Origin: a virus
Taxonomy: Duplodnaviria > Heunggongvirae > Uroviricota > Caudoviricetes
Length of the DNA stretch: 15,371 nucleotides
Strand: one strand, 5' to 3'
IMG/VR virus record: IMGVR_UViG_2579778778_000003
Made by a program: the position numbers and the translations under genes
Shown here: in pieces, positions 1 to 15,371 of the stretch
Layout: every line of letters begins with the position of its first letter
Position numbering within the stretch: position 1 is the first letter of the stretch
The notes under the pieces: generated by a model
The model's input: the letters and a program-made list of their open reading frames with translations, nothing else
The model's database searches: none
What the model was told of the DNA's origin: nothing

Positions 1-70
1 GACATAATAAGTCCTCACTATATAAAGATATTCAGTGATGAGATAAATAATCAGTTTATTACGAACGATA

Positions 71-433
71 TTAACGACCTGCTGCGCGGAGTTTTCCGTC
101 AGGTTCACCGGCAAGAGTCAGTAATTGTCCCTGGTCTTCCTGCAGAATAGTCAGGCGACCACCGCGATTGACATACATCGGCGTTTCGGTGGTGTCTTCT
201 TCGGAAATTTTCCCGCGGTTAGTTGGGCGAACATATGAGAGTTTGTGTTTGATTTTCACACGGTTCTCATCAAACGGTTCGATTTCCAGATTGAGTGAGA
301 CCTTCCCTTTGGTTTTCGTGTTCATCACACCGGAAGCGACCTCACTGAGAACTGCGCCGATTTTGGTTTCAAATACGCCGCCGTCCAGCTCCCCGATAAA
401 TGCCTGCACATCAGTACTGCGTTCGCTAGCCAT
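71..433 (-). CDS. hypothetical prophage accessory protein, 120 aa, no family recognised
   Basis: ATG at 433 with GAGGAG Shine-Dalgarno 7 nt upstream (plus-strand ctcctc at 441-446); TAA stop at 71-73. The 175-aa track ORF is a 5' extension into the GC-rich spacer with no RBS. Hydrophilic, no TM segment, no motif recognised by eye. Confidence 0.5.
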   Translation of the reverse strand: MASERSTDVQAFIGELDGGVFETKIGAVLSEVASGVMNTKTKGKVSLNLEIEPFDENRVKIKHKLSYVRPTNRGKISEEDTTETPMYVNRGGRLTILQEDQGQLLTLAGEPDGKLRAAGR

Positions 434-482
434 TTTGCTGCTCCTCATCATATCGACCCTGCAAGGTCGGTTGGTTTCTCCA

Positions 483-569
483 CAAAACAGAGAAGAACAC
501 CTGCGGTGGCAGCCGCCCGGATGGATTGGGTTATGAGCCCGTCGTCCGGTGATGCTCTTCTCTGTTTTG
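483..569. repeat. long-range inverted repeat (caaaacagagaaga / tcttctctgttttg) enclosing a ~50-nt GC-rich loop
   Basis: Arm 483-500 is the reverse complement of arm 551-569 over 14 consecutive bases; it lies in a ~400-bp GC-rich non-coding stretch between divergent genes. Confidence 0.6.
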
Positions 570-840
570 CAAAAAAGGACGGTACCAGCCGGAAGCAAGG
601 GTACAAACTGGTACCGCCAGGACTACACACAGCATAAAGTTGTGGTGCCGGGTGCCTCCCGGTGCCTGGCGAAGGTTGCACACCAGGCGGGTGGGTGTCC
701 ACAGAAGGTCGACTGTCAGCCTCAACCTTAACCCGCGTGCGCTGAGCCGCATTCACCACAACGCTAAGGATTCTCTCTGGTTGAAAATACTTAGCTGTTA
801 TGTGCCTGCTTTTAGCCACATCAGGCGAGGTGGACCTGGT

Positions 841-889
841 TATTCCCCAACAACAAGGATTCGGTTAATCTGGATATCCCCAACAACAA
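841..889. repeat. two direct copies of TCCCCAACAACAA 33 bp apart, just upstream of the 928 ORF; candidate operator or regulatory repeats
   Basis: Exact 13-bp direct repeat at 844-856 and 877-889, each preceded by tat/ata. Confidence 0.55.
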
Positions 890-927
890 TAAGAGTATTC
901 AATGTGATCGCTGAATTAACGGCAGCA

Positions 928-1419
928 ATGACGGCTATTCGTGAAACAGCCCAGATTGCAAAACTAATGAACGAGGCAAAAACTCAAGCTGAAGTAAATG
1001 CGGCTATTGGTGAGCTGAACTCAAAGCTTGCGTCTATTCAGCGCGAATGCGTGTCTCTCGTTGAACTGGTGGGCTCTTATCAAGAAATAAATGCTTCTCT
1101 CAAAGCTAAAATTGCAGAATTCGAAAACTTTGAGGCTCAGACGGAAGGCTATATCCTTAACCAACTTGAGTCGGGTACTTTTGTATACTCGAAGGAGGTA
1201 ATCGTGAACGGTGGCAGCATAACCATGCATCTTTGCCCAAAATGTTTTGGACAAAAGATAGTATCGATACTTCAACCATTCCCGGTTAGCGAAGATGAGC
1301 TTTTTCATAAAAGCAGGTGCCTCCACTGTGAAAATAAGTTTCTGATGAATAAAAATCCGGATTACGTATCGCCTCCATCCATTGAGGAGTTGTCCAGAAA
1401 ACTTAACGGCAATCTGTAG
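928..1419 (+). CDS. hypothetical protein, ~163 aa: N-terminal predicted coiled coil plus C-terminal CxxC...CxxC zinc-ribbon-like domain
   Basis: ATG at 928 (alternative in-frame GTG at 904 with AAGAG 9 nt upstream); TAG stop at 1417-1419. N-terminal half is heptad-like and Ala/Glu/Lys/Gln-rich; C-terminal half has CPKC, 24 residues, CLHC. The upstream part of track ORF 640-1419 starts at TTG and is low-complexity, so is excluded. Confidence 0.5.
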   Translation: MTAIRETAQIAKLMNEAKTQAEVNAAIGELNSKLASIQRECVSLVELVGSYQEINASLKAKIAEFENFEAQTEGYILNQLESGTFVYSKEVIVNGGSITMHLCPKCFGQKIVSILQPFPVSEDELFHKSRCLHCENKFLMNKNPDYVSPPSIEELSRKLNGNL

Positions 1420-1544
1420 ATTACTACTGTTGTGGATACCGTGGCATTTGAAGAGAAGTATGGCTCCCAGCTGGAGCTGATATTTCGTTTTATCGATCGC
1501 GCACTGGCGATTGGTGTGCTGGCCTGATTTTGTGGAGAAAGTTA

Positions 1545-1928
1545 ATGCGTGATATTCAGATGGTTCTTGAACGTTGGGGAGCGTGGGCGGCTAATAATCA
1601 TGAAGATGTGACCTGGTCGTCCATTGCCGCCGGTTTTAAGGGATTAATTCCTTCAAAAGTAAAATCTCGCCCGCAATGTTGTGACGATGACGCGATGATC
1701 ATTTGCGGGTGCATGGCCCGTCTGAAAAAGAACAACAGCGATTTGCACGATTTATTAGTAGATTATTATGTAGTCGGTATGACATTCATGTCACTGGCAG
1801 GTAAGCATTGCTGCTCTGATGGTTATATCGGGAAAAGGTTACAGAAGGCTGAGGGCATAATTGAAGGGATGTTAATGGCATTAGATATCCGGTTAGAGAT
1901 GGATATCGTTGTTAATAACTCTAATTAA
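1545..1928 (+). CDS. quuD: late-gene antiterminator Q (QuuD / phage-82-type Q family)
   Basis: 127-codon ORF from ATG 1545 with GGAG 7 nt upstream; Cys-rich segment ([12 protein letters not shown]); sits where Q is found in DLP12-type prophages, upstream of nmpC and the lysis cassette. Identity recognised from memory of DLP12 QuuD, not verified by search. Confidence 0.75.
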
Positions 1929-2117: not shown

Positions 2118-3215
2118 TTAGAACTGGTAAACCAGACCTACAGCAACGATGTCATCAGTGCTTACACCGAGTGCTTTAGTGAAGTCATTTTTGTCAAGCA
2201 GGTTGATTTTGTAATCAACGAAAGTAGACATATTTTTGTTGAAGTAATAGGTTGCACCTACATCAACATATTTGACTAAGTCCTGATCGCCCCATACTCC
2301 AAGATCCTTACCTTTAGATTGCAGGTAAGCAACGGACGGACGCAGACCGAAATCGAACTGATATTGTGCAACAGCTTCGAAGTTTTGAGCTTTATTAGCA
2401 ACGAAGTGATCAGCAAATACAGTCATATTCTGGGTTTCAGAATAGGTAGTGGCCAGGTAAATGTTGTTAGCGTCATATTTCAGACCTGCGGCCCAAACTT
2501 CTGCATTTTTACCGGAAGCAAATACTTCAGGAAGAACTTTCCCTGCATTAACTTGAGTGTCGGTACGATCAGATTTCGCATAAGTTGCACCGATACCGAA
2601 TCCTTCGTATTCATAGGTAGCAGAGAAACCGAAGCCATCACCGTTACCTTCGGTGTAGTTATCGAAATCGCTACGATCGTTTTTGCCTTGGTACTGAGCA
2701 GCAAAGTTCAGACCATCAACCAGACCAAAGAAGTCGTTGTTACGATAGGTTGCAACACCAGTGGTGCGACCAGTCATGAACACATCTGTTTGGGTCCAGG
2801 TATCGCCACCGAATTCTGGCAGAACGTCAGTCCACGCACCGATGTCGTATGCTACACCGTAGTTACGGCCGTAATCGATTGAGCCGTAGTCACCGAATTT
2901 CAGGCCTGCAAATGCAAGACGGGTTTTGTCTTTGGAGGAACCTTGAGATTCAGCGCGGTTGCCTTTGAATTCATATTCCCACTGACCGAAACCAGTCAGC
3001 TGATCGTTGATTTGGGTTTCGCCTTTGAAGCCCAGACGAACATAAGTAGTATCACCATCATCTGCATCGTTAGAGGAAAAGTAGTGCTTGGCATTAACTT
3101 TCCCGTACAGATCCAGCTTGTTACTGTCTTTATTATAAATTTCAGCTGCCTGAGCAGACATCGCCATCAGTACTGATGCAGCTACAGCAGAAATTGCCAC
3201 TGTTAATTTTTTCAT
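2118..3215 (-). CDS. nmpC: outer-membrane general porin NmpC (OmpC/OmpF/PhoE family), full length with signal peptide
   Basis: 365-aa ORF; signal peptide [23 protein letters not shown] then AEIYNKD; C-terminal VYQF; AGGG Shine-Dalgarno upstream of ATG at 3215; matches NmpC as remembered. Confidence 0.93.
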
Positions 3216-3544
3216 CGTGAGCCCTTTTTTTTGAACTATTATTAAAAAATGATGTCACTGCGCGATAAATATTCATCTAATCAATGTGATTATTTCAAGA
3301 TGTAAGTTTTAGTTTCTCATTTAATTTGTGAAGTAGATCTCTATTTTTATCTGAACTTTTTCTATCGAAACCTATTTATGGCTCTTATTTGAACAAAAAT
3401 AAATCTATTAGCTAATTTATATTAATGGCTGTTATTTATGGTGGTTCTATAATTCGTCTGTTTAATTTAAACCGGCTAAAAATAACACTGGAAATTATTT
3501 ATTGGTTATTTGTTGAGGTTTTCTTATGTATTTGTGGTGATGTT

Positions 3545-4019: not shown

Positions 4020-4516
4020 TGCCTCCATCATTACGAAAAGCCGTTGCTGCTGCTATTGGTGGCGGAGCAATTGCTATAGCATCAGTGTTAATCACTGGCC
4101 CAAGTGGTAACGATGGTCTGGAAGGTGTCAGCTACATACCATACAAAGATATTGTTGGTGTATGGACTGTATGTCACGGACACACCGGAAAAGACATCAT
4201 GCTCGGTAAAACGTATACCAAAGCAGAATGCAAAGCACTCTTGAATAAAGACCTTGCCACTGTCGCCAGACAAATTAACCCGTATATCAAAGTCGATATA
4301 CCGGAAACAACGCGCGGCGCTCTTTACTCATTCGTTTACAATGTGGGTGCTGGCAATTTTAGAACATCGACGCTTCTTCGCAAAATAAACCAGGGCGATA
4401 TCAAAGGCGCATGTGATCAGCTGCGTCGCTGGACATACGCTGGCGGTAAGCAATGGAAAGGCCTGATGACTCGTCGTGAGATTGAGCGTGAAGTCTGTTT
4501 GTGGGGGCAACAGTGA
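4019..4516 (+). CDS. rrrD: SAR endolysin (signal-anchor-release lysozyme, T4-lysozyme fold, phage 21 R family)
   Basis: 165 aa; N-terminal Gly/Ala-rich weakly hydrophobic SAR segment ([20 protein letters not shown]); E, D and T catalytic residues in [19 protein letters not shown]; translationally coupled to the holin. Confidence 0.92.
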
Positions 4517-4974
4517 GCAGAGTAACCGCGATTATATCCGCTCTGATTATCTGCATCATCGTCAGCCTGTCATGGGCGGTCAATCATTACCGTGATAACG
4601 CAATCGCCTACAAAGCCCAGCGCGACAAAAATGCCAGAGAACTGAAGCTAGCGAACGCGGCAATTACTGACATGCAGATGCGTCAGCGTGATGTTGCTGC
4701 GCTCGATGCAAAATACACGAAGGAGTTAGCTGATGCGAAAGCTGAAAATGATGCTCTGCGTGATGATGTTGCCGCTGGTCGTCGTCGGTTGCACATCAAA
4801 GCAGTCTGTCAGTCAGTGCGTGAAGCCACCACGGCCTCCGGCGTGGATAATGCAGCCTCCCCCCGACTGGCAGACACCGCTGAACGGGATTATTTCACCC
4901 TCAGAGAGAGGCTGATCACTATGCAAAAACAACTGGAAGGAACCCAGAAGTATATTAATGAGCAGTGCAGATAG
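4513..4974 (+). CDS. rzpD: i-spanin Rz
   Basis: GTG start at 4513 overlapping the endolysin stop; N-terminal TM helix then coiled-coil periplasmic domain; product recognised as lambda Rz ([11 protein letters not shown]...EQCR). Confidence 0.85.
4733..4915 (+). CDS. rzoD: o-spanin Rz1 lipoprotein, embedded in the +1 frame of Rz
   Basis: 60-aa ORF wholly inside Rz; lipoprotein signal with lipobox VVGC; proline-rich mature part; matches lambda Rz1. Confidence 0.85.
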
Positions 4975-5005
4975 AGCTGACCATATCGATGGGCAACTCA
5001 TGCAA

Positions 5006-5299
5006 TTATTTTGAGCAATACACACGCGCTTCCAGCGGAGTATAAATGCCTAAAGTAATAAAACCGAGCAATCCATTTACGAATGTTTGCTGGGTTTCTG
5101 TTTTAACAACATTTTCTGCGCCGCCACAAATTTTGGCTGCATCGACAGTTTTCTTCTGCCCAATTCCAGAAACGAAGAAATGATGGGTGATGGTTTCCTT
5201 TGGTGCTACTGCTGTCTGTTTGTTTTGAACAGTAAACGTCTGTTGAGCACATCCTGTAATAAGCAGGGCCAGCGCAGTAGCGAGTAGCATTTTTTTCAT
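5006..5299 (-). CDS. bor: Bor lipoprotein (serum-resistance family)
   Basis: 97 aa, lipobox LITGC, opposite strand immediately after Rz as in lambda; matches lambda Bor. Confidence 0.9.
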   Translation of the reverse strand: MKKMLLATALALLITGCAQQTFTVQNKQTAVAPKETITHHFFVSGIGQKKTVDAAKICGGAENVVKTETQQTFVNGLLGFITLGIYTPLEARVYCSK

Positions 5300-5589
5300 G
5301 GTGTTATTCCCGATGCTTTTTGAAGTTCGCAGAATCGTATGTGTAGAAAATTAAACAAACCCTAAACAATGAGTTGAAATTTCATATTGTTAATATTTAT
5401 TAATGTATGTCAGGTGCGATGAATCGTCATTGTATTCCCGGATTAACTATGTCCACAGCCCTGACGGGGAACTTCTCTGCGGGAGTGTCCGGGAATAATT
5501 AAAAACGATGCACACAGGGTTTAGCGCGTACACGTATTGCATTATGCCAACGCCCCGGTGCTGACACGGAAGAAACCGGACGTTATGAT

Positions 5590-6000
5590 TTAGCGTGGAA
5601 AGATTTGTGTAGTGTTCTGAATGCTCTCAGTAAATAGTAATGAATTATCAAAGGTATAGTAATATCTTTTATGTTCGTGGATATTTGTAACCCATCGGAA
5701 AACTCCTGCTTTAGCAAGATTTTCCCTGTATTGCTGAAATGTGATTTCTCTTGATTTCAACCTATCAAAGGACGTTTCTATAAGATGCGTATTTCTTGAG
5801 AATTTAACATTTACAACCTTTTTAAGTCCTTTTATTAACACAGTGTTATCGTTTTCTAACACAATGTGAATATTATCTGTGGCTAGATAGTAAATATAAT
5901 GTGAGACATTGTGACGTTTTAGTTCAGAATAAAACAATTCACAGTTTAAATCTTTTCGCACTTGATCGAATATTTCTTTAAAAATGGCAACCTGAGCCAT
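5590..6000 (-). CDS. ybcV: YbcV-like protein (DUF1398 family, lambda p78-like)
   Basis: ORF ending at 5590; start chosen at ATG 6000 (GGAAGG upstream, 136 aa). In-frame upstream alternatives at ATG 6042 and TTG 6123 cannot be excluded. Position between bor and cos matches lambda and DLP12. Confidence 0.65.
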
Positions 6001-6285
6001 TGGTAAAACCTTCCATGTGATACGAGGGCGCGTAGTTTGCATTATCGTTTTTATCGTTTCAATCTGGTCTGACCTCTTTGTGTTTTGTTGATGATTTATG
6101 TCAAATATTAGGAATGTTTTCAATTAATAGTATTGGTTGTGTAACAAAGTGCGGTCCTGCTGGCATTCTGGAGGGAAATACAACCGACAGATGTATGTAA
6201 GGCCAACGTGCTCAAATCTTCATACAGAAAGATTTGAAGTAATATTTTAACCGCTAGATGAAGAGCAAGCGCATGGAGCGACAAA

Positions 6286-7230: not shown

Positions 7231-7239
7231 GAATGAACA

Positions 7240-7759
7240 ATGGAAGTCAACAAAAAGCAGCTGGCTGAAATTTTCGGCGCGAGTATCCGTACCATTCAGA
7301 ACTGGCAGGAGCAGGGAATGCCCGTTCTGCGAGGCGGTGGGAAGGGTAATGAGGTGCTTTATGACTCTGCCGCCGTCATAAAATGGTATGCCGAAAGGGA
7401 TGCTGAAATTGAGAACGAAAAGCTGCGCCGGGAGGTTGAAGAACTGCGACAGGCCAGCGAGACAGATCTCCAGCCAGGGACTATTGAGTACGAACGCCAT
7501 CGACTTACGCGTGCGCAGGCCGACGCACAGGAGCTGAAAAATGCCAGAGACTCCGCTGAAGTGGTGGAAACCGCATTCTGTACTTTCGTGCTGTCGCGGA
7601 TCGCAGGTGAAATTGCCAGTATTCTCGACGGGATCCCCCTGTCGGTGCAGCGGCGTTTTCCGGAACTGGAAAACCGACATGTTGATTTCCTGAAACGGGA
7701 TATCATCAAAGCCATGAACAAAGCAGCCGCGCTGGATGAACTGATACCGGGGTTGCTGA

Positions 7760-7785: not shown

Positions 7786-10244
<2,459 letters not shown>

Positions 10245-10338
10245 AAACAGCCTATGACAATGCCGAGAAACGTCTGCAGAAAGATCAGAACGGTGCGGAT
10301 ATCCCTGGCAAAGACACCTTTACGAAAAATATTGGTGC

Positions 10339-10872
10339 CTGGCCGGAACTAATGAATTTATTGGTGAAGGTGATGCATATATTCCGCCTCATACAGGTCT
10401 GCCAGCAAACAGTACCGATATTGCACCACCAGATATTCCTGCTGGCTTTGTGGCTGTTTTCAACAGTGATGAGGCATCGTGGCATCTCGTTGAAGATCAT
10501 CGGGGTAAAACGGTTTATGACGTGGCTTCCGGCGACGCGTTATTTATTTCTGAACTCGGCTCATTACCGGAAAATGTCACCTGGTTATCCCCGGAAGGGG
10601 AGTTTCAGAAGTGGAACGGCACAGCTTGGGTGAAGGATACGGAAGCAGAAAAACTGTTCCGGATCCGTGAGGCGGAAGAAACAAAAAACAGCCTGATGCA
10701 GGTAGCCAGTGAGCATATAGCGCCGCTTCAGGATGCTGTGGATCTGGAGATCGCAACGGAGGAAGAAACCTTGTTGCTGGAAGCCTGGAAAAAGTATCGG
10801 GTGTTGCTGAACCGTGTTGATACATCAACTGCACCTGATATTGAGTGGCCTACGAACCCTGTCAGGGAGTAA
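10339..10872 (+). pseudogene. tfaD: tail fibre assembly protein Tfa, 5'-truncated (first ~14 codons replaced)
   Basis: Translation from ~10339 ([54 protein letters not shown]...EWPTNPVRE) matches lambda Tfa from residue ~15 onward; no in-frame start upstream; only an internal GTG at 10450. Confidence 0.75.
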
Positions 10873-12084: not shown

Positions 12085-12120
12085 TGCTCCCAATGCAATA
12101 TATGTTTTGCATTGGGAGCA
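12085..12120 (-). terminator. perfect 14-bp stem hairpin with downstream U-run on the minus strand; candidate terminator of the vgrG-effector transcript
   Basis: TGCTCCCAATGCAA-tatatgtt-TTGCATTGGGAGCA; on the minus strand followed by TATTCATATTTTTGTTATTATTG; 20 nt downstream of the stop at 12141. Confidence 0.5.
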
Positions 12121-12140: not shown

Positions 12141-13016
12141 TTATTGTATTTCTGCTTCAGAATTTCCTGGGCAGTATATATTTTCTATTTTTTGTGGAGT
12201 GATCAGGTGATGTACAACTGCTTTATCTACACATAAATTAACTCCGGTGAGAGCTAATGTATGCCCATCACCATTTATTGTTAGTAACGGGCTGGAAAAT
12301 TTCTCTGCCATCTTACGGGCATTAATCCAGGGCGTTGTTGGGTCGTATTTGTGTGCTACAAACAGTAAACCAGAGGGCAGAACAGTATTTTTCAGGCGAG
12401 TTTTGTTCAGGTCGCTATGTATTGGCCATAATTCACAAAAATCAGGCAAATCGGAACGTCCATTGTCAAAGTTAATAGCCGGGAAGGCATTCGCAAGAGC
12501 GTCTTTTCGGGATTTTCGCTCTTCTGGTGTTAATTGCTCATCCCCCTGATCTACACAGAGGATTACCCCCGAAGCATCGCTTGACTCTTCTGAGGCTATC
12601 GGAGCACTGAGCGCAGTTTCAATTTCATTACTGACAATCCCCTGAGAGAACTGGCGTATGGCAGTTGCAAGGGTTGGCCATGATGAACGCCATAGCAGAA
12701 GGTCTGTTGTTAATGATATGAGTTCATCTGAAGATATATTTTCTCTCTTACTGTCTAATAAAGGTTTGTGATGTAATTTTGATAATAGCTCATGGAACTG
12801 AGTTATTGCCTTATCTCTGTCTGAAGAAAGCGGGCAACTTTTTGTACGCGCACACCAGGATGCAAAGCGATCAAACGTTTCCTGATAACTCTGTGCCTGT
12901 TTGAGTTGCCATGTGAAGTTGTCCTCCAGGTCATCAGAAACTCCGCTCAAAGGATCTATGCTTCCTGCATGAGTGATCGGCCCGTTCGCCGATAGCCGCT
13001 GGCGTGGTACGTCAGT
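12141..13016 (-). pseudogene. C-terminal portion of an alpha/beta-hydrolase of the TAP-like (S33 peptidase) family; 5' part missing
   Basis: C-terminus has the TAP-like signature (CELWP...LLFVAHKYDPTTPWINARKMAEKF...LLTINGDGHTLALTGVNLCVDKAVVHHL) with the Asp and His catalytic region, but no GxSxG nucleophile. The frame is open upstream to 13016 without an ATG; the track ORF begins at a TTG. Confidence 0.5.
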
Positions 13017-13309
13017 TTAAGCCGGATCCCGTCGGTGTGACTGACACCCGTGATCCGGTACTGGCTGTCGCGCTCAAACGTGATGCGGTTGCTGGCGGTG
13101 TCGCTCATCCCGCCCAGCATGTACATCCGGTCATTGGGGCTGTGTGCCAGGCGGTCATCGCTGGTATCGTCAGTCACCGGGTGGCGCAGACGCATTCCCG
13201 GAAAGGCGTCATAAAAGAAGCGGCTGCTCAGTGCATCCCTGTCGAACAGCTCCAGATAATCATCGCGGCGGCGCAGAATGTACTGGGCGTGATACGGGTT
13301 AGCTGGCAT
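12956..13309 (-). pseudogene. possible Rhs / YD-repeat fragment
   Basis: 117-aa ORF with two YD-repeat-like segments (FFYDAFPGMRLRHPVTDD; YRITGVSHTDGIRLKLTYH); a stop lies 2 codons upstream of its ATG; overlaps both neighbouring frames. Assignment is by motif pattern only. Confidence 0.3.
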
Positions 13310-13625
13310 ACATCAGCGCAGGCACCAGAACCAGCGCATAAGGGCCGGTGGCACAGGCGGCCATAATCAGGCAACCTTCTGCGATGGTCACTATCGCCCC
13401 CAGCACGGCCCCTGCCAGCGCCCCCAAAAAACTCTTGTGCTGAATTTCATCGCCCAGCCTGGCGGCGGGGGGGCCGGACTTTTTTGATGCCAACATCTGT
13501 GCAATGGCTTTGTCGTTGGCTGCCCGTTTCATCTGGCTGGCGACCATCGCCTGCTGTGACAGCATTCGCATTGCCAGCGTACCGCCTGCGGTCGCTCCCT
13601 GTGGCCCGCCTGGTCCTTCACTCAT
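13299..13625 (-). CDS. N-terminal prePAAR-TMD fragment of a T6SS effector (class I, Eag-dependent type); PAAR and body missing
   Basis: prePAAR motif AARLGDEIQH (13437-13466) directly followed by a Gly/Ala-rich transmembrane stretch (FLGALAGAVLGAIVTIAEGCLIMAACATGPYALVLVPALM), then a stop; no PAAR repeats follow. The true start may be the internal ATG at 13496. Confidence 0.55.
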   Translation of the reverse strand: MSEGPGGPQGATAGGTLAMRMLSQQAMVASQMKRAANDKAIAQMLASKKSGPPAARLGDEIQHKSFLGALAGAVLGAIVTIAEGCLIMAACATGPYALVLVPALMYAS

Positions 13626-13644: not shown

Positions 13645-14106
13645 TCAGCGCGGCTGGTCCTTTTGGATGTCATTCTCCGGTGGCAACGGGGTGAAGCTCT
13701 TTATCACCTCCAGCAGCATCGTCTTTTGACTGTTCTTCAGGGATAAGGAGGTGCTGAAAGTGAAGGTCAGCAGCGTATCTCCACGCCGCTGGAATACGGC
13801 TATCTGGCTAATCCGCCCCTGATTCCCCTCATCTTCCGGACCGTTCCAGGAATAATCCAGCAGCCAGGCCGGGGCCTCTGCCAGAGTGATTTCCCGGCAG
13901 GCATGTTCGGTGTACCCATCAAGTTTGCCCTGGTACAGCGCCAGCGTTTCCTGGTACAGCTCTGGTGTCAGGGTTCCCTGTGGAACGGCTTCGCGGGTAA
14001 TGACCAGGTTGATGCCACTGTTATCTGTGGACACCAGGACCTGCATTGACTGATCCTGCCATTGAGACGGCAGTTGAATGTGGCCTTCATTAAAAGTGAA
14101 CTGCAT
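13645..14106 (-). CDS. Eag-family effector chaperone (DUF1795)
   Basis: 153 aa; N-terminus MQFTFNEGHIQLPSQWQDQS typical of DUF1795/Eag adaptors; lies between vgrG and the prePAAR effector, the canonical arrangement. Confidence 0.75.
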   Translation of the reverse strand: MQFTFNEGHIQLPSQWQDQSMQVLVSTDNSGINLVITREAVPQGTLTPELYQETLALYQGKLDGYTEHACREITLAEAPAWLLDYSWNGPEDEGNQGRISQIAVFQRRGDTLLTFTFSTSLSLKNSQKTMLLEVIKSFTPLPPENDIQKDQPR

Positions 14107-14133: not shown

Positions 14134-15371
14134 TTAGTTGATGAAAACAGAACCGCCCACGATGGTGATGCCATCCTTCGACAGCCTGATTACCGTCGAT
14201 TCCCCGACCTGTAGCTGAATGCCATCCGGCGTCAGCGCAATTTTGCTTTCCTCCACGGCCAGCAAAATTTCCTTAATCGCCGTATAAGCCTGTATACCGT
14301 CGCCTTCGCCACCATTGTTTACAGCGTCAACATGCACCGAACCGGCAATCGTGCCTCTGTCCTGAAAGACATCCTCAGATAAAGACCCTTTCAGTACTCC
14401 GGTGATCTTGTGGCCTTTTTCCACCGTAAGAAGGCGGTTACCTTCCTGGATCGTGACCGTCTGGTCATTTTTTACGGTTTCGCGATGATCGTGTTTTACG
14501 GTGGTGGTACGGTCGTTGAGCACTTCGGTATCCATGTTCTTCTGCGCGTGGATGTAGACCTGTTCTCTCCCTGTCGCATCATCAAACTTCAGCTCATTAA
14601 ATCCGCTGCCCATGTACGTTTTGGAGCGGATGGTCATCTGCGTCTTTGTTCCCGGCAGGCTGCCGGGGGTGCGGTTTTCCTGGTGGTAGGTGCGCCCCAT
14701 AATGATCGGCTGGTCCGGATCGCCGTTGAGGAAGTCTACAATCACCTCCTGACCCACACGCGGTATCGCCAGGTGGCCAAAACCGGTGCCTGCCCACGCC
14801 TGTGCCACACGGATCCAGCACGAACTGTCTTGGTCTGCCGGGTTATAACGGTCCCAGTTGAACTTCACCCGCACGCGACCATGTTCGTCGCAGAAGATTT
14901 CCTCGCCTGCCGGTCCTGTCACGACAGCGCTCTGCGGGCCGTCGACCAGCGGTTTCAGCAACGGCTGTGGTCGCCATGTTCTGTCTGCCGGGATCACCGC
15001 AAAATGGTTCTCCAGCGCCGTCCCCGCTCCCTGCCGTCCTGGCACCGCCTGTGGCTGTTCGCCGTGCAGTTCACTTGCCACCACCTGCCATTCCCGGTTC
15101 AGGTTCGCCTGCGGATGCCCCGTCAGCACAATTCGCCGTCCCGGCCATATCTCCGGCGAGCGGCTCATTCCCCGCGCGGTTTCTGCGTTGTTTCGCCAGC
15201 CGTCCATCTGCCAGCGGGCAAAGTTCTGCCCGTGGGCGCTCTTGAAACGTCCGGGGTAGTCATACACTTCATACTGCGTGCGCTGGTAGTCCTGGTGCTG
15301 GCCTTCCTGTTCAAAACGTCCGGCCCAGCCGGGGCGTTTAAAGGTGTAGTCTTTGGTCACCACGGAAGAAG
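14134..15371 (-). CDS. vgrG: VgrG spike protein, C-terminal ~410 residues (gene continues beyond the window edge)
   Basis: Frame open to the window end; gp27/gp5-like region (NWDRYNPADQDSSCWIRVAQAWAGTGFGHLAIPRVGQEVIVDFLNGDPDQPIIMGRTYHQENRTPGSLP) and C-terminal beta-helix/DUF2345-like region ending GSVFIN. Confidence 0.9.
   Translation of the reverse strand, partial: SSVVTKDYTFKRPGWAGRFEQEGQHQDYQRTQYEVYDYPGRFKSAHGQNFARWQMDGWRNNAETARGMSRSPEIWPGRRIVLTGHPQANLNREWQVVASELHGEQPQAVPGRQGAGTALENHFAVIPADRTWRPQPLLKPLVDGPQSAVVTGPAGEEIFCDEHGRVRVKFNWDRYNPADQDSSCWIRVAQAWAGTGFGHLAIPRVGQEVIVDFLNGDPDQPIIMGRTYHQENRTPGSLPGTKTQMTIRSKTYMGSGFNELKFDDATGREQVYIHAQKNMDTEVLNDRTTTVKHDHRETVKNDQTVTIQEGNRLLTVEKGHKITGVLKGSLSEDVFQDRGTIAGSVHVDAVNNGGEGDGIQAYTAIKEILLAVEESKIALTPDGIQLQVGESTVIRLSKDGITIVGGSVFIN

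What the first reader, a model, noticed from the sequence alone, without database searches (positions are those of the whole stretch)
12141..13625. Decayed Rhs-type T6SS effector: prePAAR-TMD N-terminus retained, PAAR and Rhs core lost, remnant abutting a truncated TAP-like hydrolase
Downstream of the Eag chaperone there is a clean prePAAR motif plus TM segment, as in class I Eag-dependent effectors, but the ORF stops 8 codons after the TM region. The next 354 bp encode only a YD-repeat-like fragment in another frame, and then a third frame encodes the C-terminal two-thirds of a TAP-family alpha/beta hydrolase that lacks its nucleophile region and start codon. A ~4-kb effector has therefore collapsed to under 0.7 kb, and no immunity gene follows. 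Either the hydrolase fragment is an unrelated chromosomal gene truncated by insertion, or it is the remnant of a hydrolase toxin domain.
Basis: partly seen in the sequence, partly recalled or inferred. Interest (0 to 1): 0.55.

Follow-up and report, generated by a model that had tools for sequence, protein, structure and literature searches.

The report
Deletion scar of an Rhs toxin gene
This is the leftover of an E. coli type VI secretion toxin gene (rhs): three deletions removed 15.7 kb and joined its stump to an unrelated, now truncated hydrolase gene, which is ordinary genome decay, although the break points are oddly reused in other strains.

Summary
The window is E. coli chromosome, identical in 12 of 5,426 complete genomes. 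On the minus strand, vgrG and eag (DcrB family) are followed by rhs nt 1-326. These encode the prePAAR motif AARLGDEIQH plus the hydrophobic region, 108 aa. Next come rhs nt 1425-1735 (aa 476-578, 100% identical to an intact 1620-aa Rhs) and 62 bp of the ybcH-envY intergenic region. Last come codons 231-494 of a 494-aa signal-peptide-bearing alpha/beta hydrolase gene. In intact genomes that gene lies about 15 kb downstream.

Three deletions (1,100, 11,506 and 3,123 bp; microhomologies TA, TATC, GAT) removed:
- the PAAR domain and the Rhs cage;
- the metallopeptidase toxin and the small ORF in the immunity-gene position;
- ISEc1, nfrB, nfrA, ybcH, envY and ompT;
- the hydrolase 5' half.

The hydrolase is therefore a neighbour truncated by deletion. 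It is neither a toxin remnant nor cut by an insertion.

Minor corrections: the hydrolase ORF is in the same frame as the prePAAR ORF, and it is 53% of the gene, not two-thirds.

The finding is ordinary and is already annotated as pseudogenes. The unexpected part is that the window's rhs break points (and a third site) recur, nucleotide-precise and TA-centred, in independent lineages with different partners. This is unexplained.

The parts
14134..15371 (-). vgrG, 3' part (the gene runs off the window; it is intact at 1902 bp in the matching genome)
   Evidence: Pfam Phage_GPD, Phage_base_V and Gp5_trimer_C. Annotated as an intact 'type VI secretion system tip protein VgrG' in NZ_CP019256.1.
13645..14106 (-). 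eag (DcrB/DUF1795-family T6SS chaperone gene), intact, 153 aa
   Evidence: PF08786 DcrB, E 1.4e-27. It has the same protein accession, WP_001160804.1, as in genomes with an intact rhs.
13299..13625 (-). rhs remnant 1: rhs nt 1-326, read as a 108-aa ORF with the prePAAR motif AARLGDEIQH (aa 54-63) and a hydrophobic region (aa 64-107). The stop codon TAA is created by junction 1.
   Evidence: 100% identical to aa 1-108 of the 1620-aa Rhs of L003. PF25799 hit. Hydropathy and motif.
13300..13301 (.). Junction 1: a 1,100-bp deletion inside rhs (L003 6139 joined to 7238; removes aa 109-475, including PAAR and DUF6531). Microhomology TA; shifts the frame.
   Evidence: Found only in the same 12 genomes.
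12991..13301 (-). rhs remnant 2 ('module'): rhs nt 1425-1735, aa 476-578, the first YD-repeat strands. It lies within ORF 12956-13309.
   Evidence: 311 bp, 100% identical to L003 7238-7548. The protein alignment is identical over 103 aa.
12991..12994 (.). Junction 2: an 11,506-bp deletion (L003 7548 joined to 19051) that removes the rest of rhs, the small ORF after it (immunity-gene position), the orphan fragment, ISEc1, nfrB, nfrA and ybcH. Microhomology TATC.
   Evidence: Found only in the same 12 genomes and in metagenome contigs L009, L010 and L013.
12933..12994 (-). A retained 62-bp island from the ybcH-envY intergenic region
   Evidence: 100% identical to L003 19051-19112.
12933..12935 (.). 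Junction 3: a 3,123-bp deletion (L003 19112 joined to 22233) that removes envY, ompT and codons 1-230 of the hydrolase gene. Microhomology GAT.
   Evidence: Found only in the same 12 genomes.
12141..12935 (-). 3' 53% (codons 231-494) of a TAP-like alpha/beta hydrolase gene. The signal peptide, start codon and AYSYG nucleophile are missing.
   Evidence: PGAP annotates it as 'alpha/beta fold hydrolase, incomplete, missing N-terminus'.
12086..12118 (.). A 13-bp-stem hairpin (GCTCCCAATGCAA...TTGCATTGGGAGC) just downstream of the hydrolase stop; terminator-like and retained
   Evidence: Read directly from the sequence. Not tested further.

Best explanation
The region is a non-functional deletion scar of the E. 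coli vgrG1-eagR-rhs island, named rhsF in EDL933.

Shown: relative to intact genomes, three collinear deletions of 1,100, 11,506 and 3,123 bp were sealed at 2-4-nt microhomologies (TA, TATC, GAT). They left two small islands, 311 bp of rhs and 62 bp of intergenic DNA, between the rhs 5' end and the 3' half of a neighbouring secreted alpha/beta hydrolase gene. The lost DNA holds the PAAR domain, the Rhs cage, the metallopeptidase toxin, the downstream small ORF, ISEc1, nfrB, nfrA, ybcH, envY, ompT and the hydrolase 5' half. All three junctions occur together, and only together, in one set of 12 complete genomes, so the scar has a single origin.

Inferred:
- Without PAAR the 108-aa prePAAR-TMD peptide cannot mount on VgrG, so no effector is delivered from this locus. 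vgrG and eag are left as orphans.
- The strain has probably lost the N4 phage adsorption genes and the OmpT protease.
- I favour one compound, replication-based event with serial forward template switches at microhomologies over three separate deletions. No intermediate exists in 5,426 genomes, and the same patchwork style recurs in other lineages. This last step is not shown.
For: - Identity and context.
- Segment map and junction sequences.
- Protein identity of both rhs pieces and of the hydrolase piece to the intact proteins.
- Domain content of the intact Rhs (prePAAR, PAAR 255-296, DUF6531 393-459, RHS repeats, Tox-MPTase4) and of the hydrolase.
- Co-occurrence of the three junctions in the same 12 genomes. 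Contig L009 carries all three junctions; L010 and L013 were read across junctions 2 and 3.
- PGAP marks both pieces as pseudogenes.
- prePAAR is needed for the PAAR-VgrG interaction, and class I effectors are defined as Rhs proteins with one TMD region: PMC7773334.
- Collinear multi-junction remnants in other lineages: BE2-5, D2, L017, L018.
Against: - The order and number of events cannot be read from the sequence; three successive deletions in one lineage would give the same end state.
- The true ancestor of this lineage may have differed from the reference used (toxin type, ISEc1 presence), so the deleted lengths are relative to L003.
- Expression of the 108-aa ORF and its binding to Eag were not tested, so a residual role is not excluded.
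- I did not verify that the carrier genomes keep a T6SS core cluster. I saw only that they hold two further vgrG-like matches.
Confidence: 0.9

Rival explanations
1. Three independent, successive deletions accumulated in one lineage. For example, a large deletion came first, and later a smaller one removed the PAAR region, possibly selected because a truncated TMD-PAAR-Rhs stump is harmful.
For: Single-junction states exist and are stable elsewhere: the Rhs(1-578)::NfrB fusion is in 25 complete genomes. The locus is clearly deletion-prone in many lineages.
Against: No genome among 5,426 carries a subset of the three junctions. Five of the six decayed lineages examined carry two or more collinear junctions within a few kb, which is unexpected for rare independent events.
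Confidence: 0.35
2. The junctions are footprints of insertion-sequence excision with flanking deletion. This is the IEE-type route: transposase-made breaks are repaired by microhomology-mediated end joining. One end of each deletion would then mark a former IS insertion site.
For: IEE is reported in more than 30% of E. coli assemblies and gives deletions from a few nt to more than 40 kb next to the excised IS, joined at microhomologies (PMC9943667). ISEc1 lies inside the deleted interval. One recurrent rhs break site (aa 101-102) coincides with a tail, recognised from memory as an IS629-like end, in other strains (P0005 and P0006).
Against: No IS or IS end is present at any of the three window junctions. 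None of the 36 short ORFs that contain the 311-bp module shows an IS tail at its two boundaries. The TA bias of the junctions is not a known property of IS3-family targets (my own knowledge).
Confidence: 0.12
3. The retained vgrG-eag-prePAAR/TMD trio still does something, for example the 108-aa peptide bound to Eag acting as a membrane peptide or a decoy. That would explain why deletions in several lineages stop just after the TMD.
For: The native start, upstream genes and 108 codons are intact and end at a clean stop. Independent truncations end at aa 101-102 and aa 108-109 in other strains.
Against: Other truncations end inside the TMD or the motif (aa 54-94). D2 lost vgrG, eag and the N-terminus altogether. 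prePAAR-TMD without PAAR has no described activity (PMC7773334). Many of the short ORFs are homopolymer frameshifts.
Confidence: 0.07
4. The hydrolase fragment is the remnant of a hydrolase-type Rhs toxin domain, or the three ORFs are one gene broken by sequencing frameshifts.
For: Only adjacency and the alpha/beta-hydrolase fold, which some T6SS lipase effectors share (my own knowledge).
Against: The full gene is a free-standing 494-aa ORF with a signal peptide. It lies between ompT and the prophage end, about 11 kb downstream of the rhs stop, and is present in about 1,240 genomes. A 62-bp intergenic piece lies between it and rhs. 15.7 kb is absent in 12 assemblies.
Confidence: 0.01

Closest known systems
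E. coli vgrG1-eagR-rhsF island (EDL933 z0707/z0706 and downstream rhs; class I prePAAR Rhs effectors such as Salmonella Rhs1/SciW and P. protegens RhsA/EagR1)
   Same: It occupies the same chromosomal site next to cusS, with the same vgrG and eag. The first 108 aa and aa 476-578 are identical to an intact Rhs, and the prePAAR motif is an exact match.
   Different: PAAR, DUF6531, nearly all YD repeats, the toxin and the downstream small ORF are deleted. It is a pseudogene remnant, not an effector.
TAP-like alpha/beta hydrolases (Pfam PF08386 / PF00561)
   Same: The C-terminal 264 aa are near-identical to those of the full E. coli protein and carry the TAP-like C-terminal domain.
   Different: It lacks the start codon, the signal peptide and the AYSYG nucleophile motif, so no enzyme can be made.
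Rhs(1-578)::NfrB in-frame fusion allele (annotated 'NrfB', 1268 aa, e.g. ECONIH4)
   Same: An independent deletion begins at the same rhs nucleotide (L003 7546) as the window's junction 2.
   Different: It has a single junction, keeps the rhs N-terminus with PAAR intact, and ends in nfrB codon 54 rather than in the ybcH-envY spacer. It occurs in 25 complete genomes.
IEE/IS-excision-associated deletions and microhomology-mediated template switching (MMBIR-type) events
   Same: Junctions have 2-4-nt microhomology, deletion sizes run from 0.6 to 11.5 kb, and the small retained islands are collinear.
   Different: No IS is left at the junctions. Neither process is known to me to prefer TA-centred sites or to reuse the same nucleotide in independent events.

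Membership tests
Class I prePAAR (Eag-dependent Rhs) T6SS effector | prePAAR motif AARxxDxxxH | tested here: met
   AARLGDEIQH at aa 54-63. PF25799 hit, 29.1 bits against a cutoff of 25. Motif definition from PMC7773334.
Class I prePAAR (Eag-dependent Rhs) T6SS effector | Single N-terminal TMD region and an adjacent eag gene, downstream of vgrG | tested here: met
   Hydrophobic stretch at aa 64-107. The DcrB-family gene is 19 bp upstream, and vgrG is upstream of that.
Class I prePAAR (Eag-dependent Rhs) T6SS effector | PAAR domain after the TMD | tested here: not met
   PAAR lies at aa 255-296 of the intact protein, inside the 1,100-bp deletion that removes aa 109-475.
Class I prePAAR (Eag-dependent Rhs) T6SS effector | Rhs/YD-repeat cage, C-terminal toxin and cognate immunity gene | tested here: not met
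   Only aa 476-578 of 1620 remain. Tox-MPTase4 (aa 1485-1613) and the downstream small ORF are inside the 11.5-kb deletion.
TAP-like alpha/beta hydrolase (PF08386/PF00561) | Complete alpha/beta fold with the nucleophile elbow (G/A-x-S-x-G) | tested here: not met
   AYSYG is at aa 200-204 of the full protein, and the fragment starts at codon 231.
TAP-like alpha/beta hydrolase (PF08386/PF00561) | C-terminal TAP-like domain | tested here: met
   PF08386, E 1.6e-14, residues 161-254 of the fragment.
Rhs C-terminal toxin domain (hydrolase as toxin) | Toxin fused to the Rhs core in one ORF, followed by an immunity gene | tested here: not met
   In intact genomes the hydrolase is a separate signal-peptide ORF about 11 kb downstream of the rhs stop, beyond nfrBA, ybcH, envY and ompT.
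IS-excision (IEE-type) deletion | A former IS insertion at one end of each deletion, in an iee-positive background | not testable with these tools
   No IS sequence is present at the junctions. The iee status of the carriers and their ancestral IS positions could not be queried.

The most novel reading that the evidence does not exclude
rhs genes of this family do not decay at random. A few TA-centred sites, mostly of the form G-N-T-A-N-C, are reused nucleotide-precisely as deletion end points in independent E. coli lineages and one Salmonella lineage, each time with a different partner sequence. Two of them are the window's own break points, GGTTA^ACC (L003 7238) and GGCTA^TC (L003 7546); the third is GGTA^ACGG (L003 8456). 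The products are collinear patchworks of small retained islands. This would point to a sequence-specific break or template-switch process not yet described for bacterial gene decay. One candidate is a dimeric nuclease or a type II topoisomerase-like cut leaving overhangs of 4 nt or less.
Probability: 0.3. Interest if true: 0.55.

Novelty: already known. Interest (0 to 1): 0.25.

Why it matters
As a gene, it does not matter much. It is one more decayed accessory T6SS effector, already flagged as pseudogenes by the annotation pipeline.

It is useful in three small ways:
1. It gives a fully resolved example of how a vgrG-eag pair becomes an orphan. It also shows why a 'prePAAR' hit next to eag need not mean an effector.
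2. The same event removed the small ORF in the immunity-gene position, the N4 phage adsorption genes nfrA and nfrB, and ompT. The lineage should therefore differ in toxin sensitivity, phage susceptibility and surface proteolysis. These phenotypes are inferred, not tested.
3. The recurrent, TA-centred break points would be a testable lead on how illegitimate deletions are sited in enterobacterial genomes, provided they hold up in a population-wide breakpoint catalogue.

Tried and rejected
- **Hairpins at the hot spots.** The left boundary lies in the loop of an 8-bp-stem hairpin (GTGATACG...CGTATCAC). Folding energies are not unusual (z -0.2 to -1.6), and the right boundary has no structure.
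- **A break point shared between K-12's cusS-nfrB scar and strain D2.** I withdrew this after re-reading the coordinates: K-12 keeps L003 3346 to about 3360, D2 ends at 3355.
- **DNA gyrase cleavage preference as the source of the G-N-T-A-N-C pattern.** The Topo-Seq paper describes quinolone scission before G and gives the central logo only as a figure, so nothing could be checked.
- **IS insertions at the boundaries of the 311-bp module.** None appears among the 36 short ORFs. ISEc1 ends and an IS2-like tail (recognised from memory) occur at other positions.
- **The metagenome scan for new partners of the right boundary** found only the two known types: 3 window-type and 5 Rhs::NfrB contigs.
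- **The short N-terminal ORF variants.** Most are homopolymer frameshifts, probably sequencing errors, and I did not count them as deletions.
- **A prophage deletion junction in the same window** has microhomology CTG, not TA, so the TA bias is not universal.
- **Literature searches** for rhs/vgrG/nfrB and for deletion end-point hot spots gave nothing relevant.

Full report
**What is there**

All genes of interest lie on the minus strand. From high to low coordinates they are:
- the 3' part of vgrG (14134-15371);
- an intact DcrB/Eag-family gene (13645-14106);
- a 108-aa ORF (13299-13625);
- a 117-aa ORF (12956-13309);
- a 269-aa ORF (12141-12950).

Pfam gives prePAAR_I for the first ORF (E 1.2e-6). 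It gives only a weak RHS_repeat hit for the second (E 0.077). The third hits TAP-like Abhydrolase_4 (E 1.6e-14) and Abhydrolase_1. The 108-aa peptide contains AARLGDEIQH. This is an exact match to the AARxxDxxxH prePAAR motif defined by Ahmad et al. (PMC7773334). A continuous hydrophobic stretch follows at aa 64-107.

**Where it comes from**

The window is E. coli chromosome. A 2.3-kb query across the finding is 100% identical (to one decimal) in 12 of 5,426 complete genomes, which come from humans, pigs, chickens, a giant panda and wastewater. In strain 13TMH22 the annotation pipeline already marks two pieces as pseudogenes:
- window 12992-13625 as a frameshifted, incomplete 'hypothetical protein';
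- window 12141-12935 as an 'alpha/beta fold hydrolase, missing N-terminus'.

More than 4,000 other genomes match only parts of the query.

**The intact state**

Strain Z0117EC0116 (locus L003) has the gene order: cusS, vgrG, eag, rhs, a small ORF, an orphan rhs fragment, ISEc1, nfrB, nfrA, ybcH, envY, ompT, the alpha/beta hydrolase, and then the end of a lambdoid prophage.

Its rhs is 4,863 bp and encodes 1620 aa. The protein carries prePAAR, PAAR at aa 255-296, DUF6531 at aa 393-459, ten RHS-repeat hits and a Tox-MPTase4 toxin at aa 1485-1613. The hydrolase is 494 aa, begins with a signal-peptide-like sequence and has its AYSYG nucleophile motif at aa 200-204. The full-length hydrolase gene is present in about 1,240 genomes. 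In EDL933 this island is known as vgrG1 (z0707), eagR (z0706) and rhsF (PMC7216683).

**The map of the scar**

Alignment of the window to L003 gives four collinear blocks:

| Window | L003 | Content |
|---|---|---|
| 15371-13300 | 4068-6139 | vgrG, eag, rhs nt 1-326 |
| 13301-12991 | 7238-7548 | rhs nt 1425-1735, 100% identical |
| 12994-12933 | 19051-19112 | ybcH-envY intergenic region, 100% identical |
| 12935-10339 | 22233-24829 | hydrolase codons 231-494 and onward into the prophage |

The three gaps are 1,100, 11,506 and 3,123 bp. Their junction microhomologies are TA, TATC and GAT.

At protein level the 108-aa ORF equals Rhs aa 1-108. Residues 4-106 of the 117-aa ORF equal Rhs aa 476-578 in the native frame. 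The 269-aa ORF equals hydrolase aa 231-494 with one substitution. The 1,100-bp deletion shifts the frame, and the TA at the junction completes a TAA stop directly after codon 108.

The open alternative is settled. The hydrolase is a neighbouring chromosomal gene cut by deletion. It is not a toxin remnant, and it was not cut by an insertion.

Small corrections:
- The hydrolase ORF shares the frame of the prePAAR ORF.
- It is 53% of the gene.
- A 62-bp intergenic island sits between the rhs piece and the hydrolase piece.

Resequencing cannot restore an ORF, because 15.7 kb is missing.

**One origin**

Short queries across each junction find full-length matches in the same 12 genomes and in no others. 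The exception is two genomes that match the first query through a different deletion. A pattern scan of metagenome contigs found three human-gut contigs of the window type. One of them, L009, carries all three junctions; the other two were read across junctions 2 and 3. No intermediate with one or two junctions was seen.

**How it works now**

This part is inference. prePAAR acts together with PAAR to load the effector on VgrG (PMC7773334). With PAAR gone, the peptide cannot be mounted, so the locus delivers nothing. vgrG and eag remain intact. The eag product has the same accession as in intact loci. The carrier genomes hold two further vgrG-like matches, so they may still have a T6SS elsewhere; I did not verify that. 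The deletion also took nfrA and nfrB (phage N4 adsorption genes), envY and ompT.

**An unexpected pattern**

While looking for intermediates I found that the window's rhs break points recur in unrelated decayed alleles, each time with a different partner.

The right end of the 311-bp rhs island (a break after L003 7546, GGCTA^TC) is joined to six different partners:

| Source | Partner |
|---|---|
| This window | L003 19051 |
| Strain D2 | L003 8136 |
| Strain BE2-5 | L003 8456 |
| 25 genomes with an in-frame Rhs(1-578)::NfrB fusion annotated as NrfB | nfrB codon 54 |
| Draft genome L017 | nfrA |
| P0062 | an orphan rhs copy |

The left end of the island (L003 7238, GGTTA^ACC) is joined to five different partners:

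| Source | Partner |
|---|---|
| This window | rhs nt 326 |
| Strain D2 | the spacer upstream of vgrG |
| L018 | vgrG nt about 749 |
| P0064 | eag codon 36 |
| Widespread orphan copy | an AT-rich leader |

A third site, L003 8456 (GGTA^ACGG), was never part of a query. It is nevertheless the partner in six events, one of them in Salmonella.

Eight of 13 junctions resolved at DNA level have TA inside their 2-4-nt microhomology. A simulation of random junctions in the same DNA expects 3.9%. TA makes up 3.2% of dinucleotides in the rhs core. The three main sites are among only 20 G-N-T-A-N-C sites in the core. Five of the six decayed lineages examined carry two or more collinear junctions with small retained islands, like this window.

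**Limits of that pattern**

- My sampling was anchored on this window's break points, so the counts are not a census.
- Several end points come from protein tails, which resolve only to within about 3 nt.
- Most short N-terminal ORF variants are homopolymer frameshifts, which I excluded.
- A prophage junction in the same window uses CTG.
- Hairpin folding, a gyrase motif and IS footprints did not give a convincing cause.
- One secondary site (rhs aa 101-102) does coincide with what looks, from memory, like an IS629-type insertion in other strains. IS excision with flanking deletion may therefore contribute.

I report the pattern as unexplained.

**Scores**

The finding itself is a real, well-read, ordinary pseudogene scar of a known island. 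It is already known in kind and low in interest (0.25). The most novel reading not excluded is a site-specific process behind rhs decay. I give that a probability of 0.3 and an interest of 0.55 if true.

Noticed in passing
window 12991-12994 and 13300-13301; loci L003 7238, 7546 and 8456; L004, L005, L007, L017, L018: The window's two rhs break points and a third site (L003 8456) are reused nucleotide-precisely in independent lineages, each with 5-6 different partner sequences. Eight of 13 junctions have TA in the microhomology, against 3.9% expected. The cause is unknown.
   Followed up: partly
L005 4935-8741 (NZ_CP026399.1, strain ECONIH4): An in-frame fusion of Rhs aa 1-578 (prePAAR, TMD, PAAR, DUF6531, first YD repeats) to NfrB from codon 54. 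It is annotated simply as 'NrfB' (1268 aa) and occurs in 25 complete genomes and 5 metagenome contigs. Whether it is made, or affects phage N4 adsorption, is unknown.
   Followed up: partly
L003 10925-11310: Between the small ORF downstream of rhs and ISEc1 lies an older patchwork: a roughly 65-nt diverged rhs piece, about 95 nt of AT-rich DNA and a 184-bp copy (91-92% identical) of the same 311-bp module. The module copy starts at the same nucleotide as in the window and reads as an ORF beginning MEIVIYITISILILDIALIKQRMLANIETS-NPYHAQY. It is truncated by ISEc1.
   Followed up: partly
window 9885-10341: The DLP12-like prophage next to the finding is itself a patchwork: a portal fragment, a 147-bp tail-fibre fragment, then the tail-fibre assembly gene. 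The junction at 10339-10341 has microhomology CTG.
   Followed up: partly
window 12086-12118: A perfect 13-bp-stem hairpin directly downstream of the hydrolase stop codon, probably the gene's terminator, kept in the scar.
   Followed up: no
L008 8594-8616 (K-12 MG1655): K-12 has no vgrG island. Between cusS and nfrB it carries a 23-nt filler that includes about 15 nt (TATCACATTACCCGC) resembling the spacer upstream of vgrG in island-bearing strains. This suggests that K-12 lost the island rather than never having had it.
   Followed up: partly
window 1-1700 and 2118-3215: The prophage combines CPS-53-like early genes (yfdP, yfdQ, yfdR, yfdT) with DLP12-like late genes. It carries an intact porin gene (365 aa) between quuD and essD.
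   Followed up: no
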